Both the position numbers and the translations under genes were made by a program. This document shows, piece by piece, positions 1,495-50,010 of a stretch of 64,000 nt of DNA. The stretch is from Alphaproteobacteria bacterium (GTDB taxonomy: Bacteria > Pseudomonadota > Alphaproteobacteria > SP197). The DNA lies in assembly GCA_964291415.2 (NCBI GenBank), contig OZ219918.1:1152001-1216000 (forward strand). Direction: 5' to 3'. A model generated the notes under the pieces. The model did not search any database. It was not told the DNA's origin and saw only the letters and a program-made list of their open reading frames with translations. Positions within the stretch are counted from its first letter, which is position 1; each line of letters opens with the position of its first letter.

Positions 1495-2337
1495 ATGGCG
1501 AAGACTGACATAACGGGCTCAGCGGGCCGGGGACGGGCGAGCGGCCCCGGGCAGGCGTTGGGGGCGCTCGTCGCCTATCGCGGCGCGACCGGCGGCCGTG
1601 CGAACCTGACGTTGGGAATCGCCGCGTTCATTCTGTTCATCGCAGTCTGGTACCTCATCGTGTTCACGGGGCTCGTGACGGAGCGGTTTCTTCCGTATCC
1701 GGGCGTCGTCATCGGGACCATGGCGCAGCTTCTGGTGACGGAGAGTTTCCTGAACGACGTCTGGATCTCCGTCGCCCGCGTCTGGGGCGCGTTTCTTCTC
1801 TCGGTCGTCGCCGCCGTACCGATCGGGATCTGGATGAGCAGCTACAGAATCGTCGGTGCATTGGTCGAGCCGATCGTCGACTTCATTCGATACCTGCCGG
1901 TTCCCGCCCTCGTGCCGCTTCTCATCATCTGGTTTGGCATCGGCGAGGCATCCAAGGTGGCGGTGCTCTGGATGGGAACGTTCTTCCAGCTGGTCCTGCT
2001 GATCGCCGATGACGCGAAACGCATTCCGCGGGAGTTCGTCGAGACGGGCTACACGCTGGGTGCCAAGCCCCGCCAGATTACGCGCAGCATCGTCCTTCCG
2101 TCGATGCTGCCCACCATGGTGGACAATCTCAGGATCACGCTCGGCTGGTGCTGGACGTGGATCATCGTTGCCGAGATCGTTGCCGCCAACAGCGGGATCG
2201 GCCACTACATCTGGTCGATGAGGCGCTTCCTGAAGACGCCGGAAGTCATGGCCGGGATTCTGGTGGTCGGCATCATCGGACTGCTCACCGACCAGGCCGT
2301 CCGCATGGCCCATCGGCGGTTGTTCAGGTATCTGTGA
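1495..2337 (+). CDS. ABC transporter permease (NitT/TauT family)
   Basis: Hydrophobic helices; DFIRYLPVPALVPL; EAA-like ETGYTLGA; AEIVAANSGIG. Confidence 0.9.
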   Translation: MAKTDITGSAGRGRASGPGQALGALVAYRGATGGRANLTLGIAAFILFIAVWYLIVFTGLVTERFLPYPGVVIGTMAQLLVTESFLNDVWISVARVWGAFLLSVVAAVPIGIWMSSYRIVGALVEPIVDFIRYLPVPALVPLLIIWFGIGEASKVAVLWMGTFFQLVLLIADDAKRIPREFVETGYTLGAKPRQITRSIVLPSMLPTMVDNLRITLGWCWTWIIVAEIVAANSGIGHYIWSMRRFLKTPEVMAGILVVGIIGLLTDQAVRMAHRRLFRYL

Positions 2338-2345
2338 GGCCGGCC

Positions 2346-3152
2346 ATGACCGCGAACCAGCCCCGGGCCTTCGTCCAGATCCAAAACGTCTTCAAGGAAT
2401 TCGAGACCGAAGGCAAGGGTGCCGCGCCAATTCCCGTGATCGACGGCGTGTCGATGGAGATCCGGGAGGGAGAGTTCGTCGTCTATCTCGGTCCGTCCGG
2501 GTGCGGGAAGACCACCCTGATGCGCATCGTCGGAGGCCTCGAGACCGCGACAACGGGCGACGTGCTCCTGGGCGGCGAGAGGGTCATCGGGCCGGACCGG
2601 CGAAAGGGAATGGTCTTCCAGGCCTACACGTCGTTTCCGTGGCTCACGGTTCTCCAGAACATCAAGTTCGGGACCAAGTATCGCGACGACATCGGTGAGC
2701 CGGAACGCAATGAGATCGCGAATCACTACCTGCAGCTCGTCGGACTCGGGGACTTCGCCGACTTCTACGTCAACCGGATCTCCGGCGGCATGCGGCAACG
2801 GGTCGCCATCGCGCGGACGCTCGCGGCGGCTCCGGACATCCTGCTGATGGACGAGCCGTTCGGCGCCCTCGACGCGCAGACTCGGGATTTCCTTCAAGAG
2901 CAGCTCCTGGAGATATGCCGCGCGGAACGAAAGGCGGTGATCTTCGTCACACACGATGTCGAAGAGGCGGTCTTCCTTGCGGATCGCGTGTTCATGTTTT
3001 CCGCAAGGCCGGCCCGGGTGATCGAGGAGATCGATGTCAATGGGGTCATCGGTGCCGAACGAACGGCGGACACGAAGGAAACAGATGCCTTCTTTCGTCT
3101 GAGGAATCACGTCCGCGACTTGATGCGGGACCAGGCCAGGGCGATTGCATGA
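2346..3152 (+). CDS. ABC transporter ATP-binding protein
   Basis: GPSGCGKT, ISGGMRQR, LLMDEPFGALD, VTHD. Confidence 0.93.
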   Translation: MTANQPRAFVQIQNVFKEFETEGKGAAPIPVIDGVSMEIREGEFVVYLGPSGCGKTTLMRIVGGLETATTGDVLLGGERVIGPDRRKGMVFQAYTSFPWLTVLQNIKFGTKYRDDIGEPERNEIANHYLQLVGLGDFADFYVNRISGGMRQRVAIARTLAAAPDILLMDEPFGALDAQTRDFLQEQLLEICRAERKAVIFVTHDVEEAVFLADRVFMFSARPARVIEEIDVNGVIGAERTADTKETDAFFRLRNHVRDLMRDQARAIA

Positions 3153-3955
3153 CGATGCCACGGCCCGGCGAGCCCGGTACGGCGAGCTTCGATTTCTCCG
3201 GCCGCCGCGTTCTCGTCACGGGCGCAAGCCGGGGCATCGGGTTGGGCGTGGCGGAAGGGTTCGTTGCCGCCGGAGCCGACGTCACCATCCTGGCCATTGA
3301 CGACGAAGTCGAGGAAACGGCGAGGATGCTCGCCGGTCTTCATGGCCGGGAGGTCGGCGCGATTGTGTGCGACATCGCAAGTCAGGACGAGGTCCGTGCC
3401 GCACTGGCACCGTTCGAATGGATCGACGTCCTCGTCAACAATGCGGGGTTGGAGCTTGTGACGCCGATGACCGACTGCTCCGAGGAGACGGTCTCGGCCT
3501 TCGAGAGGATCGTCGAGGTCAATGTTCTGGGGACGTACCACGTAACTCGATCGGTGCTCCCCAAGATGGGGCCTGGAGGGCGAATCATCATCACCTCATC
3601 CATGTGGGGAAAGACGGCGGTTGCCGAATTCAGCGCCTATAGTTCGTCCAAGCATGCGAACATCGGATTCATGCGCAGTCTCGCCAGGGAACTCGGACCG
3701 CGCGGAATCAGCGTGAACGCTGTGTGTCCCGGCTGGGTTCGCACCGCGGCGGCGATGCGCTCTCTCTCGGTCATGGCAAGACGCCAGGGAAGGGAGGAAG
3801 GCGAACTCCTTCAGGAGATCGTTGATGCACAGGCTGTCGAGGGGTTGATGGAGCCCGAAGACATGGCCATGACCTACCTCTTTCTCGCTTCCGATGCGGC
3901 GAGGAACATCACGGGACAGGCCATCAGCGTGGATCGCGGAGATTTCATCGGATGA
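3149..3955 (+). CDS. Short-chain dehydrogenase/reductase
   Basis: ATGA overlap; TGASRGIG, NNAG, YSSSK. Confidence 0.9.
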   Translation: MTMPRPGEPGTASFDFSGRRVLVTGASRGIGLGVAEGFVAAGADVTILAIDDEVEETARMLAGLHGREVGAIVCDIASQDEVRAALAPFEWIDVLVNNAGLELVTPMTDCSEETVSAFERIVEVNVLGTYHVTRSVLPKMGPGGRIIITSSMWGKTAVAEFSAYSSSKHANIGFMRSLARELGPRGISVNAVCPGWVRTAAAMRSLSVMARRQGREEGELLQEIVDAQAVEGLMEPEDMAMTYLFLASDAARNITGQAISVDRGDFIG

Positions 3956-4698
3956 GTGCAGTCCTTGGCGGAAAAGTGGCGTTCGTCACCGGGGTCTCGA
4001 GCGGCATCGGCGCCGCTGCCGCCCACGCCCTGGCCGACGCCGGCGCCCGCGTCTTCGGCTGCGACCTCAAGCCGTCGGAGGGGACGTGTGATGCCGTGCG
4101 TGCTCGTGGTGGCGACATGGTGGGATACCGGGGCGACGTCAGCGTCGAGGACGACGTGGTGAGGGCGATCGGGGCGTGTCTCGATGCCTTCGGCGCACCG
4201 GACATTGCGGTGAACTGCGCCGGTACGGCACACGAGTGTCCGACGCTGGATGAATCCGTGGAAGACTTCGATCGCGTCGTCGCGGTCAACCTGAGGGGAA
4301 CGTTTCTGTCCGGGCGGGAAGCGATTCGCCAGATGCTGTCGCATGGCAAGGGCGGCCGGGTCGTGAACATCGCATCCGATCTGGGCTATCTGGGGCGGGC
4401 CGGATACGGGAGCTACTGCGCTTCCAAGGGGGCTGTTCTGAGCCTGACCCGCTCCTGGGCCAGGGAGTTCGCGCCGCACATCCTGGTCAACTGCGTGGCG
4501 CCAGGTCCGATCGATACGCCGATGCTCGGACCGGAGTTCATGTCGCCGGAAGTCCGGGCAAGCGAAACCGCAATCCCTCTCGCCCGGATCGGTTCGGTCG
4601 AGGAGGTCGCTGCGGCGATCGTGTTCCTGAGCGGGCCCGGCGCCACATTCATGACCGGCCAGACGATCGGCCCGAACGGCGGTTCGGTCATGCCCTAG
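3952..4698 (+). CDS. Short-chain dehydrogenase/reductase
   Basis: ATGA overlap; TGVSSGIG, NCAG, YCASK. Confidence 0.92.
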   Translation: MSAVLGGKVAFVTGVSSGIGAAAAHALADAGARVFGCDLKPSEGTCDAVRARGGDMVGYRGDVSVEDDVVRAIGACLDAFGAPDIAVNCAGTAHECPTLDESVEDFDRVVAVNLRGTFLSGREAIRQMLSHGKGGRVVNIASDLGYLGRAGYGSYCASKGAVLSLTRSWAREFAPHILVNCVAPGPIDTPMLGPEFMSPEVRASETAIPLARIGSVEEVAAAIVFLSGPGATFMTGQTIGPNGGSVMP

Positions 4699-47201: not shown

Positions 47202-48119
47202 TCAGTCTGTCGGCAGGACTCCGGGCGGCGGCGGCACCGCCTCGCATTTGAGCCAGTGGACCCGTTCGCGGTACGCGCGGTCGAGTTCGGGGTCGTTGCG
47301 CGGCCCTGGCGGACCGCCTGGTTCCTCGAGGAGGTGGTGCGGGTTGCGGCCGTTGACCGCGCCCATGAACGGGGCTCCGAAGTCGTAGCCGACAAGCCTC
47401 TGCAGTTGTTCGGGCAGTTCCCGAGCCTTGTCGGGAGGCAGGGTCAGGAACTGGTTTTCCTGCTGGCGCAGCCAGCCCAGCGCAAGGTTGATCGCAACGG
47501 CGGTGCGCGGCCGCGCCGAGGCGTTGGCGCCGCCGCCGTGAATCAGGCTGTGGGCATAGATGATAGCCGCCCCGGCGGGCATCTCCGCCACCTCGATCTC
47601 GTCGGCGCGGGGACGGCGTTCCTCGTCCCACAGGTGGCTTCCCGGAACGATGCGTGTGGCGCCGTTCTCGCGGGTGAACTCGGTTACGGCCCACAGCGAA
47701 CCCTGCTGCGTTATCGGACCCGGATTGCGAAAGGGGTAGAAGAAGGCGTCCCTGTGGAGAGCCTGGGCGGTCTCTCCGGGAAGCAGGTGCATGGTGCCGG
47801 TGTAAGTGATCTGGTAGCGCGCGCACCACGGCAGGAGGATGTGGTCCGCGGCGCCGAGAAGGATGGGATGGAGCGCCATCGCGCGCGTGGTAGGCGCGCG
47901 CATGAAGAGATTGTTGAGACGCTGGGTCCGGGCTCCCAGGAAATCGCTCTCGCCCGTCGCCTGGCCGGCGAGCCCGCGGTCGAGCTCCCCACGCAGGGAG
48001 GTGAGGTCGCCGGCGCCGATCATGTTCTCGATGATGGCATAGCCATGCTGCTCGATGGCGCGTCCGACCTCCCCGCCGTCGGTGGATCGTGCATCGAACC
48101 TTGCTGCAACCGACATCAA
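47202..48119 (-). CDS. Phytanoyl-CoA dioxygenase (PhyH) family protein
   Basis: QALHRD, FTRENGATRIVPGSH, HGGGAN, GWLRQQENQFL. Confidence 0.92.
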   Translation of the reverse strand: MMSVAARFDARSTDGGEVGRAIEQHGYAIIENMIGAGDLTSLRGELDRGLAGQATGESDFLGARTQRLNNLFMRAPTTRAMALHPILLGAADHILLPWCARYQITYTGTMHLLPGETAQALHRDAFFYPFRNPGPITQQGSLWAVTEFTRENGATRIVPGSHLWDEERRPRADEIEVAEMPAGAAIIYAHSLIHGGGANASARPRTAVAINLALGWLRQQENQFLTLPPDKARELPEQLQRLVGYDFGAPFMGAVNGRNPHHLLEEPGGPPGPRNDPELDRAYRERVHWLKCEAVPPPPGVLPTD

Positions 48120-48157
48120 TGGACCTCCGCGCAGCTGCGCGGGGCAGTCTCCCTGTC

Positions 48158-48165
48158 CTCCGATT
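48158..48165. repeat. Target-site duplication, copy 1 (CTCCGATT)
   Basis: Identical to 49494-49501. Confidence 0.85.
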
Positions 48166-48192
48166 GGGACTTACATCGAGAAGTTGGCGGCG

Positions 48193-49392
48193 TCATGCCG
48201 CCATCCTCCGATCGATTTCGCGGTTCACAGGCCCGGTAACCCGGCAACCTCCCCGCGCAGATGCCTCAGTCCCCGAGGCCAGGATGTTCGCCGCTGCATT
48301 GAGGTCGGCGTGATCCGCATGGCCACAGGCCACGCATTGAAACAGGTCCCGCGTCCTGCGTGATTGGGCGCTTGTGACGCCGCACGCTGCACAGGTCTGG
48401 CTGCTGTAGGCCGGGTTCACCGCGATGACGCGGCAAGCCTTGTAGTCCAGCATTCTCCGGAACGACGACCAGCCCGTCTCCAGGATGACGCGGTTGAGAC
48501 CCGCCTTGGACCGCACGTGGCGTCCCGGCTCCTCCTTCGTGCCCCTGGCGCTGCGGGTCATGGTGCGGACCTTCAGATCCTCGACCACCACCGTCCCCGC
48601 TTCATCCGCCAGCCGGCGGCTGACATGGTGCTGCCAGTCATGGCGCTTCATGGCCATGTGCCGGGTGGTTTTCGCCAGACGTCGCCGCGTCTTCTCCCGG
48701 CGCCTGCTGCCACGTTGCTGCCGCGCCAGTTGCTTGGCGTAGCGCCGGGCGCGGGCCTCGAGACGCCGGCTCCTCTCCAGACGCATGATCTCCCCGTCCG
48801 AGGTCGCCACTGCACCTGCATTCATGTCCACGCCGACGGCATGGCCGTTGTCGTCGGATTCCGGCAGCGACACCGCATGGCATACCACCGCCTTCCAGCG
48901 TCCCTCCTCGCGCTTGAGGACCGCACTCACCGGCGTGCCCTGCGGCCAGGGATTGCCGCCCCGGCGGCGGATGGTCAGCCAGCCCACACCGGGGATGCGC
49001 AGGCGGTTGCCTTCAACCCTGACGCCGGAGACCACGGAAAGGCTGTTGAAATGCCGGCGTCCCTGGAACCGGGGGAACCCGGCCCCACCCTGCTTCACCC
49101 GCCGGAAGAAGCCCTTGAAGGCATGATCGAGGCGCTTGAGCGTCCCACGCTGGATGGCCACCGGCACCACAGCCATCTCCGGCAGGGCCTTGCGGCAACG
49201 GGTCAGGGACTTCGCCTGATCGAAGTAGGTGAGTGACTTACCAGTCTTCCGGAAGCAGTCGATCCGTTCTTCCAGCGCCGCGTTGTAGAGCTGGCGCTGT
49301 GCATCGAGCATGGCGTCCAGCCGCCGCCAGGTGTTGCGCTTCTCGGGCAGCAGGCGAAAGGTGATCTGTCGATGGGTGACAGAGGACGGCAT
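48193..49392 (-). CDS. tnpB: RNA-guided endonuclease TnpB
   Basis: LYNAALEER, GFPRF, RuvC-I VGVDMN, RuvC-II VVEDL, zinc finger CAAC/CVAC, RuvC-III ADLNAAANI. Confidence 0.95.
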   Translation of the reverse strand: MPSSVTHRQITFRLLPEKRNTWRRLDAMLDAQRQLYNAALEERIDCFRKTGKSLTYFDQAKSLTRCRKALPEMAVVPVAIQRGTLKRLDHAFKGFFRRVKQGGAGFPRFQGRRHFNSLSVVSGVRVEGNRLRIPGVGWLTIRRRGGNPWPQGTPVSAVLKREEGRWKAVVCHAVSLPESDDNGHAVGVDMNAGAVATSDGEIMRLERSRRLEARARRYAKQLARQQRGSRRREKTRRRLAKTTRHMAMKRHDWQHHVSRRLADEAGTVVVEDLKVRTMTRSARGTKEEPGRHVRSKAGLNRVILETGWSSFRRMLDYKACRVIAVNPAYSSQTCAACGVTSAQSRRTRDLFQCVACGHADHADLNAAANILASGTEASARGGCRVTGPVNREIDRRMAA

Positions 49393-49433
49393 GTGGGAAC
49401 TCCGGTGTTACAGGCACTGATTTACGACACGAA

Positions 49434-49462
49434 ATCATACCGATAACACCACTGGATGTCAA
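49434..49462 (-). promoter_or_regulatory. Near-consensus sigma70 promoter of tnpB
   Basis: TTGACA-17 nt-TATGAT, about 40 nt upstream of ATG. Confidence 0.8.
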
Positions 49463-49493
49463 GTCGATTCTGTCAAGTTCAGTATGTAATCCC

Positions 49494-49501
49494 CTCCGAT
49501 T
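49494..49501. repeat. Target-site duplication, copy 2 (CTCCGATT)
   Basis: Identical to 48158-48165. Confidence 0.85.
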
Positions 49502-49609
49502 CGCCGTCAATCTCCCCGAGACGCAGGACCCCGCGGCGGCCCCAGCGGGATTGAAAGGAGAGGGACCGTCCATGTGCCGGGTTCGGCATCTGTGCGTTCG
49601 CCTTGTCGG

Positions 49610-50010
49610 CTGCCGCCGCTCAACGGTCTCGGCATTGCCATGATCCTGCTTGCTGCGACAGGCCTCGGCCTGGAGACGGACCGGACCATCCATGAGCACT
49701 TCAGCCGGTCTTTCGCATCGCGTTCGCCGTCGCCGCTCCGCGCGACGGGCGCTGTCTCGGCGACGGCTGGAGATCCTTCGACATCATCGTCCTCGTCCGG
49801 GCCTTCGTTTCGGATGCATGCGAACTCGCTCTCATGGCGCGTCTGGCGAGACTCCTGAGGGTGCTGCGCGTCGTGATCGCGGTCTCCCGGCTGCGCCTTG
49901 TCGTCTCGACCCTGGTCCGTTCGCTGCCGGAGCTGGGCCATGACATGCTGCCGCTGTTCGTCATCTGCTGCGTTTGCGGCATCGCCGACGTGCAGCTCTT
50001 CGGCTCGTGC
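49610..50010 (+). pseudogene. Voltage-gated ion channel (BacNav-like ion transporter) pseudogene
   Basis: S1 ILLAATGLGLET; S3 DGW..FDIIV; S4 ARLARLLRVLRV; S4-S5 LRLVVSTLVRSLP..QLFG; frameshifts; pore missing. Confidence 0.78.

What the first reader, a model, noticed from the sequence alone, without database searches (positions are those of the whole stretch)
48158..49501. TnpB carried by a TIR/TSD (DDE-type, IS1595-like) non-autonomous element
Seen: the only gene in 48166-49493 is a tnpB with intact D/E/D RuvC residues and zinc finger. The ends are ~25-bp imperfect inverted repeats (GGGACTTACATcgaGAAgTTGgCgG vs GGGA-TTACATactGAAcTTGaCaG, 18 matches), and exactly 8 bp (CTCCGATT) is duplicated immediately outside both ends. 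Established: the canonical TnpB hosts, IS200/IS605 (HUH Y1) and IS607 (serine recombinase), make no TSD and lack TIRs. 8-bp DRs with ~25-bp GG-initiated TIRs and passenger-carrying derivatives are typical of the IS1595 DDE family. Inference: an RNA-guided nuclease has been captured by a DDE transposon and is mobilised in trans, a bacterial parallel to Fanzors in eukaryotic DDE elements. I cannot check whether this association is already catalogued.
Basis: partly seen in the sequence, partly recalled or inferred. Interest (0 to 1): 0.88.

Follow-up and report, generated by a model that had tools for sequence, protein, structure and literature searches.

The report
TnpB riding a non-autonomous IS1595-type transposon
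This 1.3-kb mobile element carries only an RNA-guided nuclease gene (tnpB) but has the inverted-repeat ends and target duplications of IS1595-type cut-and-paste transposons, so it most likely borrows a transposase made elsewhere in the genome, as do dozens of related tnpB elements in other marine bacteria.

Summary
Window 48166-49494 is a 1329-bp element whose only gene is an intact tnpB. It has about 25-bp imperfect terminal inverted repeats and a target-site duplication. That duplication is 7 bp (TCCGATT) in this copy and 8 bp in its relatives.

- **Mobility:** other copies end at the same bases and have different duplications. Two sponge-metagenome DNA runs hold the exact empty site.
- **Transposase partner:** the genome has no Y1 transposase. 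It has two IS1595-family DDE transposase elements, and the ends of one match this element's tnpB-upstream end at 23 of 25 bases.
- **Breadth:** the link covers a whole TnpB clade. Of 79 related loci at 42-92% aa identity, 35 show GG-initiated repeats beside a perfect 8-bp duplication. A mismatched control gave 0 of 79.
- **Arrangement:** tnpB and the transposase were essentially never found side by side, so gene-neighbourhood surveys would miss the link.
- **TnpB state:** it is under purifying selection and keeps a covarying ωRNA-like structure that runs into one repeat.

TnpB in DDE transposons was published in 2023, but IS1595 is not named in the text I could read.

One result is unexplained. 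Insertions have a G just outside the duplication on the tnpB-upstream side only (37 of 40). This may be a TAM footprint.

The parts
48159..48165 (.). Target-site duplication, left copy (TCCGATT, 7 bp in this copy)
   Evidence: sequence. joint 48158->49495 skips 1336 bases, with 7 letters fitting both sides.
48166..48190 (+). Terminal inverted repeat at the tnpB 3' side ('RE'): GGGACTTACATCGAGAAGTTGGCGG
   Evidence: All full copies start at this base. Loose ends of other copies lie at 48164/5.
48166..48300 (-). ωRNA-like conserved structured region. It overlaps the tnpB 3' end and runs into the RE repeat. Its 5' limit is not determined.
   Evidence: Alignments A2 and A4. RNAalifold. In one search, 91% of cells are paired against 38-44% when slid, and 52 cells have a change on both sides against 20.8±3.2 in shuffles. 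Single-sequence fold z = -2.97. No Rfam match.
48146..48165 (-). Inferred guide-template: the flank read through from RE (duplication plus downstream bases)
   Evidence: Inference from TnpB/ωRNA architecture only. There are no expression data (one search used contigs only).
48193..49392 (-). tnpB, 399 aa, RuvC D189/E271/D363 and CxxC..CxxC intact
   Evidence: dN/dS is 0.16-0.43 among 8 intact copies.
49434..49462 (-). σ70-like promoter TTGACA-17-TATGAT upstream of tnpB
   Evidence: 11 of 12 matches. Two sites were found against 0.1 expected. This is a consensus match only.
49470..49494 (-). Terminal inverted repeat at the tnpB 5' side ('LE'): GGGGATTACATACTGAACTTGACAG
   Evidence: It is 23 of 25 identical to the end of the IS1595 transposase element G000:C2:46358-49518. 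Loose ends of other copies lie at 49494.
49495..49501 (.). Target-site duplication, right copy (TCCGATT)

Best explanation
Window 48166-49494 is a non-autonomous derivative of an IS1595-family (DDE) insertion sequence. Its passenger is a complete TnpB/ωRNA module.

Shown:
- It is a discrete unit of 1329 bp with GGG-initiated inverted ends.
- It is inserted with a 7-8-bp duplication.
- It is absent from the same site in related strains.
- It is multi-copy.
- Its ends are the ends of elements that encode IS1595 transposases.

Inferred:
- An IS1595-family transposase made in trans binds both repeats, excises or copies the element, and inserts it with staggered cuts 8 bp apart. In this genome the candidate is the 327-aa protein of the element at G000:C2:46358-49518.
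- TnpB is expressed from its own promoter just inside the upstream repeat.
- The ωRNA scaffold overlaps the 3' end of tnpB and pairs with positions 10-13 of the downstream repeat.
- Transcription reads out into the flank, so each copy would carry a guide matching its own insertion site (duplication plus downstream bases).
- TnpB would then cut the unoccupied or vacated allele and promote its repair from an occupied copy. This is the retention role shown for IS605/IS607 TnpB, transplanted here to a DDE element.
For: **Boundaries and duplications**
- Own genome: the window copy plus 3 more full copies (93-94% identical to it) and one copy split by an IS110 element. All begin and end at the same bases.
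- Their duplications are CATTTTTT, AAAGGAAG and TTGTCGAT.
- Same-genus genomes give CAAGGGAT, AACCGTTT and CTTTCTTG.
- Copies only 67-69% identical give GAATTCAT and CTTCTTTT.

**Empty site**
- Contigs of DNA runs X2 and X3, from two studies, join 48158 to 49495 with 7 shared letters.

**Partner transposase**
- Only two IS1595 transposase genes exist in the genome.
- They match Pfam DDE_Tnp_IS1595 at 1e-36 and NCBIfam NF033547 at 187 bits against a cut-off of 75.
- The repeats of the first element match the window LE at 23 of 25.
- In genome G042 the IS1595 end GGGGATTACAAAGATGACTTGACAT and the TnpB-element LE GGGGCTTACAAAGGTAAGTTGACAT share a genome-specific signature (21 of 25, by eye).
- 18 of 72 TnpB-element ends match an autonomous IS1595 end at 20 of 25 or better. 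The control maximum was 19.
- 16 of 80 metagenomic IS1595 transposase loci have the same GGGNNTTATATAC ends with perfect 8-bp duplications.

**Clade-wide pattern**
- 35 of 79 TnpB loci have an 8/8 duplication beside GG-anchored repeats, and 4 more have 7/8. The mismatched control gave 0 of 79 at 7/8 or better.
- 5 of 7 paralogue loci show the same.
- A 39%-identical paralogue in the own genome does too.

**No IS605 route**
- PF01797 has 0 matches in the 100%-complete genome, and 0 in 3 of 5 other carrier genomes.
- PF12762 is present in 5 of 5 of those genomes and in 18 of 23 genomes of the genus.

**TnpB kept functional**
- 8 of 8 full copies are intact, with dN/dS 0.16-0.43.
- Catalytic residues are invariant.
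- The 3' RNA structure covaries.
Against: - No transposition assay exists. The trans-mobilisation step is inferred from shared ends.
- Genome G013 is complete and has at least 3 such elements, but no PF12762 match. G016 also has none, though it is fragmented.
- One own-genome copy (C4:1339554-1340882) has no clean duplication. 40 of 79 related loci did not give a duplication of 7/8 or better in my script. Some of these are visibly degenerate and some are script failures.
- Copies within this genome differ by 6-7%, so recent activity here is shown only by the strain polymorphism.
- The RE repeat is much less like the IS1595 ends than the LE repeat.
- ωRNA expression, its ends and the guide are not shown. 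The RNA run was available only as contigs.
- I drew the RNA structure partly from these same sequences, which inflates the comparison with slid controls.
Confidence: 0.85

Rival explanations
1. The element is mobilised by a DDE transposase of another family that also makes 8-bp duplications. The likeness to IS1595 ends is convergent, or limited to the terminal ten bases.
For: The median best identity of TnpB-element ends to autonomous IS1595 ends is only 17 of 25, against a control median of 15. G013 has elements but no PF12762 match. tnpB and the IS1595 transposase are never in one element: 0 of 80 and 1 fragment of 80.
Against: Matches of 23/25, 22/25 and 21/25 extend through the inner part of the repeat and exceed the control maximum of 19. 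A genome-specific signature is shared in G042. In the own genome, the other GGG..TTA.. inverted-repeat pairs that the scan found are the two IS1595 transposase elements and two 298-bp MITEs.
Confidence: 0.08
2. It is an ordinary IS200/IS605 (IS1341-type) or IS607 tnpB-only element moved by a Y1 or serine TnpA. The inverted repeat and the direct repeat are coincidental.
For: TnpB itself is a typical family member. tnpB-only copies are common in those families (PMC13565253, section 5.1 passage).
Against: Variable 8-bp duplications occur at 35 of 79 loci against 0 of 79 in the control. The empty site retains one copy of the repeat. The genome has no Y1 transposase. Both families are described as making no TIRs or TSDs (PMC13565253 passages). 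TnpB scores below NCBIfam's IS200_TnpB cut-off (166 < 425) and IS607_TnpB cut-off (98 < 350).
Confidence: 0.01
3. About TnpB's role. The one-sided G next to the upstream duplication is a TAM footprint. TnpB, guided by the RE-flank read-through, cuts vacated or empty sites that carry the G. Copies at such sites are therefore restored and persist, while copies at other sites simply move on.
For: The base 5' of the LE-side duplication is G in 37 of 40 unique perfect-duplication insertions. The base 3' of the RE-side duplication is unbiased (C in 16 of 40). The binomial p against 0.33 is 5e-15. Autonomous IS1595 elements with perfect duplications have G in 4 of 21 (Fisher p 1e-8). The position is where a TAM must lie if the guide starts at the duplication. 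In Fanzors of DDE transposons the 5' duplication is part of the TAM (PMC13565253 section 6.2, read).
Against: MITE derivatives in the own genome show the same G in 3 of 3 insertions that have a recognisable duplication (8/8, 7/8 and 6/8). One lacks any ωRNA-like core and two carry it inverted. Near-identical, hence recent, copies already show it in 5 of 6. The control elements come from other lineages and partly from AT-rich hosts. In the alphaproteobacterial sample, G was 3 of 5 among perfect duplications and 6 of 20 among upstream-end motifs.
Confidence: 0.27
4. About the same asymmetry. It is an orientation-specific target preference of the transposition complex on these non-autonomous ends, which differ between LE and RE. 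It is independent of TnpB.
For: The MITEs without a usable ωRNA share it (3 of 3). It is present in recent copies.
Against: Transposase-encoding elements with the same terminal motif lack it (4 of 21). Elements whose two repeats start identically (GGGAATT at both ends: L063, L082, L084, L122) still have the G on the tnpB-upstream side only. My recollection is that DDE transposons generally show palindromic target preferences.
Confidence: 0.4

Closest known systems
DDE-transposase-associated TnpB branches (DDE-1 to DDE-6) of Altae-Tran et al. 2023, PNAS (PMC10691335; passages read)
   Same: Prokaryotic TnpB lies inside elements with inverted terminal repeats, and the tnpB 3' end is close to one end. 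Solo TnpBs carrying the same ends are proposed to be mobilised in trans.
   Different: In the main text the named partner is IS630. A 2026 review (PMC13565253) lists ISL2, IS630 and IS1031. IS1595 occurs 0 times in both texts. There the transposase sits beside tnpB. Here it was never found beside it.
IS1595-family insertion sequences with passenger genes (ISfinder subgroups such as ISNwi1+/ISPna2+; names and the end motif 'ggnnatTAT' are recalled, not from a call)
   Same: GGG-initiated repeats of about 20-25 bp, 8-bp duplications, and carriage of passenger genes. The autonomous relatives found here are 1.9-3.25 kb and contain the transposase plus a passenger.
   Different: This element has lost, or never had, the transposase. 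Its passenger is an RNA-guided nuclease whose RNA is fused to one repeat.
IS200/IS605 tnpB-only (IS1341-type) elements
   Same: A single tnpB gene of the same protein family with an ωRNA-like 3' region. They are multi-copy.
   Different: Those have no TIRs, no duplications, subterminal hairpins and a fixed 4-5-nt target, and they are moved by a Y1 TnpA. None of this holds here.
Fanzor nucleases in eukaryotic DDE transposons (Bao & Jurka 2013, PMC3627910, search listing and abstract; review PMC13565253, section 6.2 read)
   Same: A TnpB-type nuclease is carried between TIRs with duplications. The duplication lies between the scaffold or repeat and the rest of the flank.
   Different: The host is bacterial, the protein is a compact 399-aa TnpB, and the DDE family is different. 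The arrangement is non-autonomous.

Membership tests
IS1595 family (as a non-autonomous derivative) | Encodes a DDE_Tnp_IS1595 transposase | tested here: not met
   The element holds only tnpB. The transposase is elsewhere in the genome. It is therefore filed as a derivative, not as an IS.
IS1595 family (as a non-autonomous derivative) | Terminal inverted repeats shared with transposase-encoding family members | tested here: met
   23 of 25 to the element at G000:C2:46358-49518. 18 of 72 ends reach 20 of 25 or better, against a control maximum of 19. The same GGGNNTTATATAC motif occurs in 16 metagenomic autonomous elements.
IS1595 family (as a non-autonomous derivative) | 8-bp target-site duplication of variable sequence | tested here: met
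   35 of 79 related loci are perfect against 0 of 79 in the control. Own-genome and same-genus copies agree. The window copy has 7 bp.
IS1595 family (as a non-autonomous derivative) | Moved by an IS1595 transposase | not testable with these tools
   This needs a mobilisation assay.
IS200/IS605 (including IS1341-type) | Y1 HUH TnpA available; no TIR, no duplication; fixed short target 5' of LE | tested here: not met
   PF01797 has 0 matches in the own genome. Duplications are variable. The empty site keeps one repeat copy.
IS607 | Serine-recombinase TnpA beside tnpB; no duplication | tested here: not met
   There is no second gene within the 1329 bp, and duplications are present. Serine recombinases elsewhere in the genome were not searched.
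TnpB / OMEGA RNA-guided nucleases | RuvC D-E-D triad and zinc finger; full-length homology to characterised TnpB | tested here: met
TnpB / OMEGA RNA-guided nucleases | Structured ωRNA overlapping the 3' end and reaching the element end | tested here: inconclusive
   Covariation supports a conserved structure. There is no Rfam match, and no read-level evidence of the RNA.
TnpB / OMEGA RNA-guided nucleases | TAM- and guide-dependent DNA cleavage | not testable with these tools
   There is only the one-sided G, 37 of 40, and that is ambiguous.
DDE-associated TnpB branches of Altae-Tran 2023 | DDE transposase gene adjacent to tnpB in at least part of the branch | tested here: not met
   0 of 80 IS1595 loci have tnpB within 2.5 kb. 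1 of 80 TnpB loci has a transposase fragment.
DDE-associated TnpB branches of Altae-Tran 2023 | Placement in one of the published tree branches | not testable with these tools
   The branch membership lists are in supplementary files, which were closed.

The most novel reading that the evidence does not exclude
The clade's TnpB uses a minimal TAM: essentially a single G, perhaps G followed by A/W, lying just outside or at the start of the 8-bp duplication. In a cut-and-paste DDE transposon it works as a ratchet. Copies that land beside the G are restored after excision, because TnpB cuts the resealed site. Copies elsewhere simply move on. This would explain why 37 of 40 surviving insertions carry the G on one side only. 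It would be the first evidence of how an RNA-guided nuclease and a low-specificity DDE transposase are made compatible in bacteria, and it would point to a compact TnpB with a nearly unrestricted TAM.
Probability: 0.25. Interest if true: 0.82.

Novelty: new variant of a known kind. Interest (0 to 1): 0.62.

Why it matters
**A hidden association.** TnpB is usually explained through the scarless excision of IS605 and IS607. A 2026 review argues that DDE transposons gain little from it and that such pairings are rare in prokaryotes (PMC13565253, section 6.2). Here a diversified TnpB clade (39-100% aa identity) in Alphaproteobacteria, plus two Bacteroidota/Rhodothermales genomes, lives in IS1595-type TIR/TSD elements. 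The nuclease is under purifying selection and its RNA is fused to one repeat.

**Why surveys would miss it.** The transposase is never adjacent to tnpB. Gene-neighbourhood surveys would therefore class these elements as solo or IS1341-like TnpB. Other 'orphan' TnpBs may be hidden passengers of DDE elements in the same way.

**A testable question.** The orientation-linked G at the insertion site gives a concrete handle on how TAM recognition and DDE target choice are reconciled.

Tried and rejected
- **Rfam:** a search of 47900-49800 gave only a sub-threshold sRNA match (16 bits against 72).
- **Plasmids:** tblastn at 1e-40 gave no match.
- **First end-finder for IS1595 loci:** it gave only noise. 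I replaced it with a motif listing and a GG/CC-anchored scan.
- **G042 four-copy IS1595:** the four copies share 1834 bp but show no recognisable second end, so I did not use them for duplications.
- **More MITEs:** a scan of the 1.55 Mb of loaded loci found only the one already known, so the MITE test of the TAM idea stays at n = 3.
- **RNA run X9:** it holds contigs over the element, including one that runs from a foreign flank into the RE side. Contigs cannot show transcription, strand or RNA ends, so I draw nothing from it about expression. Shares under 0.2 are not used as habitat evidence.
- **9- or 10-bp duplication:** I considered whether this could explain the one-sided G. The bases do not fit.
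- **Junction promoter:** I considered whether a promoter across a circle junction could explain the G. I found no convincing -35.
- **Literature:** searches for TnpB with IS1595, ISNwi1 and IS1595 with passenger and IS605 returned no paper whose listed title or abstract describes this association. I did not open these papers.
- **First filing of the report:** it was turned back for a schema slip (the confidence field was misplaced). I corrected it and sent it again.
Full report
**What is there**

Window 48166-49494 holds one long ORF with family support, 48193-49392 on the - strand, 399 aa.
- It matches Pfam Cas12f1-like_TNB and OrfB_IS605.
- It matches NCBIfam guided_TnpB at 213 bits against a cut-off of 100. 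It falls below the narrower IS200_TnpB model (166 < 425) and IS607_TnpB model (98 < 350).
- It aligns end to end with the solved ISDra2 TnpB chains 8h1j and 8bf8 (E about 3e-32).
- In an alignment with five paralogues at 49-59% identity, the RuvC residues D189, E271, D363 and the four zinc-finger cysteines are invariant.
- A σ70-like promoter (TTGACA-17-TATGAT, 11 of 12) lies between the upstream repeat and the start codon.

**Boundaries**

The own genome has 5 contigs and is 100% complete. It holds the window copy, three more full-length copies at 93-94% identity, one copy split by an IS110-family element, and fragments.
- All full copies start at the base equivalent to 48166.
- Outside these bases the flanks are unrelated. 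They carry 8-bp direct repeats that differ between copies: CATTTTTT, AAAGGAAG and TTGTCGAT. The fourth copy (C4) has no clean repeat.
- The split copy interrupts a Rieske-type oxygenase reading frame (my reading of the ORFs).
- For the window copy, the literal 8-nt repeat CTCCGATT includes the last C of the inverted repeat. The duplication proper is the 7-bp TCCGATT.

**Empty site**

Contigs from public runs were laid on window 47600-50000. Two DNA runs from two studies (X2, X3) each contain a contig that joins 48158 directly to 49495. The joint skips 1336 bases, with 7 letters fitting either side. That equals the 1329-bp element plus one duplication copy.

Two other runs (X1 and the RNA-library run X9) carry a second allele in which 48166-49591 is replaced by 92 other letters. 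Contigs of other copies break away from the window exactly at 49494 and at 48164/5. These are contigs, not reads, and the best holder may be the source sample.

**The transposase**

The genome has no match to the Y1 transposase family PF01797, while the same search finds it in 6 of 14 control genomes. It has exactly two IS1595-family transposase genes (tblastn; Pfam; NCBIfam NF033547 at 187 bits against 75).
- They lie in two adjacent elements, C2:46358-49518 (3161 bp) and C2:49528-51995 (2468 bp).
- Each has GGG-initiated inverted repeats and room for a passenger gene.
- The repeats of the first element are 23 of 25 identical to the tnpB-upstream repeat of the window element.

**Breadth**

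By DNA, the element or close relatives occur in 13 of 22 other genomes of the genus and in 0 of 18 genomes outside it.
- Same-genus full copies have perfect duplications CAAGGGAT, AACCGTTT and CTTTCTTG. One is imperfect and one degenerate.
- Copies only 67-69% identical still have the repeats and GAATTCAT or CTTCTTTT.
- Of seven paralogue loci at 47-60% aa identity, five had perfect 8-bp duplications, one had 7/8 and one had none.

A profile scan of one genome per species returned 238 confirmed relatives, of which the best 80 were kept. They come from uncultured Alphaproteobacteria, Paracoccaceae, Thalassobaculaceae and two Bacteroidota/Rhodothermales genomes.
- A script anchored on GG...T ends found a perfect 8/8 duplication next to the repeats in 35 of the 79 loci it could scan, and 7/8 in 4 more.
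- Pairing each upstream region with another locus's downstream region gave 0 of 79 at 7/8 or better.
- The geometry is constant. The upstream repeat lies about 50-230 nt before the start codon. The stop codon lies 26-36 nt before the downstream end wherever the tblastn match reached the C-terminus. Elements are 1.30-1.46 kb, which leaves no room for a second gene.
- A 39%-identical paralogue in the own genome has the same structure.

**Link to IS1595 outside this genome**

PF12762 is present in 5 of 5 further carrier genomes tested, against 1 of 14 controls, and in 18 of 23 genomes of the genus.
- In G042 the transposase-proximal IS1595 end and the TnpB-element end share a genome-specific TTACAAAG signature (21 of 25).
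- A metagenome scan with an IS1595 transposase alignment gave 80 loci. Of these, 16 had GG-anchored repeats with perfect 8-bp duplications, all 1.9-3.25 kb, with ends of the form GGGNNTTATATAC.
- Some of these ends match TnpB-element ends at 22 of 25.
- None of these 80 loci has a tnpB within 2.5 kb. Only 1 of the 80 TnpB loci has an IS1595 transposase fragment nearby.
- Against the reading: G013, a complete genome with at least three such elements, has no PF12762 match.

**TnpB and its RNA**

All 8 full copies compared keep the 399-aa frame, and pairwise dN/dS is 0.16-0.43.

I aligned the last 135 nt up to the downstream end for the window copy plus 19 of the 39 loci with a duplication of 7/8 or better. 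The 19 are those left after removing sequences more than 93% alike. The alignment shows six helices.
- On the structure I drew, 91% of cells pair, against 38-44% with partners slid. There are 52 cells with changes on both sides, against 20.8±3.2 in shuffles (0 of 500 reach it).
- All four pairs of one hairpin show compensatory changes.
- So do three of the four pairs that join the tnpB 3' coding end to positions 10-13 of the downstream repeat.
- RNAalifold on the longer alignment independently found the long-range stem.
- I derived the structure partly from these sequences, so the slid control is generous.
- No Rfam family matches.

The downstream repeat is therefore both a transposase site and, by inference, the 3' end of an ωRNA scaffold. 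This may be why it is less like IS1595 ends than the upstream repeat.

**An unexplained asymmetry**

I oriented the sites by tnpB and used 40 unique insertions with perfect duplications: 35, three own-genome copies and two same-genus copies. The 44 loci without perfect duplications were dropped.
- The base immediately 5' of the upstream duplication is G in 37 of 40.
- Duplication position 1 is A in 29 of 40, and position 2 is A or T in 40 of 40.
- The base 3' of the downstream duplication is unbiased (C in 16 of 40).
- The window copy also has the G.
- Transposase-encoding IS1595 elements with perfect duplications have G at the corresponding place in 4 of 21. That is 1 of 16 and 3 of 5, one of the five read by eye. 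Fisher p is 1e-8.
- Among 20 upstream-end motifs in an alphaproteobacterial sample, G was 6 of 20.

This is where a TAM would lie if the guide starts at the duplication. However, four MITE derivatives in the own genome complicate the picture. Two are 298 bp with an inverted ωRNA-like core, and two are about 174 bp without it. They show the same G in 3 of 3 cases that have a recognisable duplication. Nearly identical copies in one genome show it in 5 of 6. I therefore keep the TAM reading at about one in four, and a transposition-level cause at about two in five.

**What is known**

- Altae-Tran et al. 2023 (PMC10691335, passages read) describe six DDE-associated TnpB branches with inverted terminal repeats. 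They note solo TnpBs with near-identical ends that are probably mobilised in trans. Only IS630 is named in the main text.
- A 2026 review (PMC13565253, sections read) lists ISL2, IS630 and IS1031.
- 'IS1595' occurs 0 times in these two papers and in PMC10711439.
- Full-text searches for TnpB with IS1595 and for RNA-guided with IS1595 returned 9 and 6 papers. None is about this association judging by title and abstract, and I did not open them.
- The supplementary files that list branch members were closed and could contain this clade.
- The ISfinder subgroup names and end consensus that I mention are recalled, not checked.

**Verdict**

The concept is known, but the IS1595 partner and the strictly in-trans arrangement appear to be new. 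The orientation-linked G is a real, unexplained feature and is worth an experiment.

Noticed in passing
G000:C2:46358-49518 and C2:49528-51995 (L019 1359-4519 and from 4529 on): Two IS1595-family elements sit 9 bp apart, end to end. The first carries a 464-aa predicted protein with an HExxH motif and no Pfam or NCBIfam match as its passenger. Their duplications are imperfect (6/8 and 7/8) and A-rich.
   Followed up: partly
L276-L304 (alphaproteobacterial IS1595 loci): In 8 of 20 transposase-proximal ends, the two bases just outside the 8-bp duplication are 'cc'. This would be expected if IS1595 elements often insert right beside the ...CCC terminus of another such element, as seen in the own genome.
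   Followed up: no
G000:C2:344481-344778, C4:1169275-1169572, C4:883416-883589, C4:560976-561150: These are MITE derivatives of 298 and about 174 bp with the same ends. The 298-bp form contains the ωRNA-like core in inverted orientation and a strong internal hairpin.
   Followed up: partly
G000:C2:85682-87486 (L020 about 2183-3987): An IS110-family element (374-aa transposase, NF033542 at 169.5 bits) is inserted into one TnpB element copy at element position 137/138. That TnpB copy itself splits a Rieske-type oxygenase gene.
   Followed up: partly
window 48166-49591 and 49544-49891: Related strains in metagenome contigs carry a second allele in which 48166-49591 is replaced by 92 other letters (runs X1, X9). 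The empty-site contigs of X2 and X3 also skip 49544-49891 (348 bases).
   Followed up: no
G000:C1:387871-389019: This is a second, 39%-identical TnpB paralogue. It has its own GGGAC... inverted repeats, a 7/8 duplication (AAACACTT/AAACACTC) and the same G outside it.
   Followed up: yes
G013 (same genus, complete genome): It carries at least three TnpB/TIR elements with perfect duplications but has no detectable IS1595 DDE domain. These are orphaned non-autonomous elements, or they use a partner that was not recognised.
   Followed up: no
L146, L150, L155, L159 (G042): Four copies of an IS1595 transposase unit share the upstream end and 1834 bp but have no recognisable second repeat. Their upstream flanks all differ. 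This may be one-ended transposition or a degenerate far end.
   Followed up: partly
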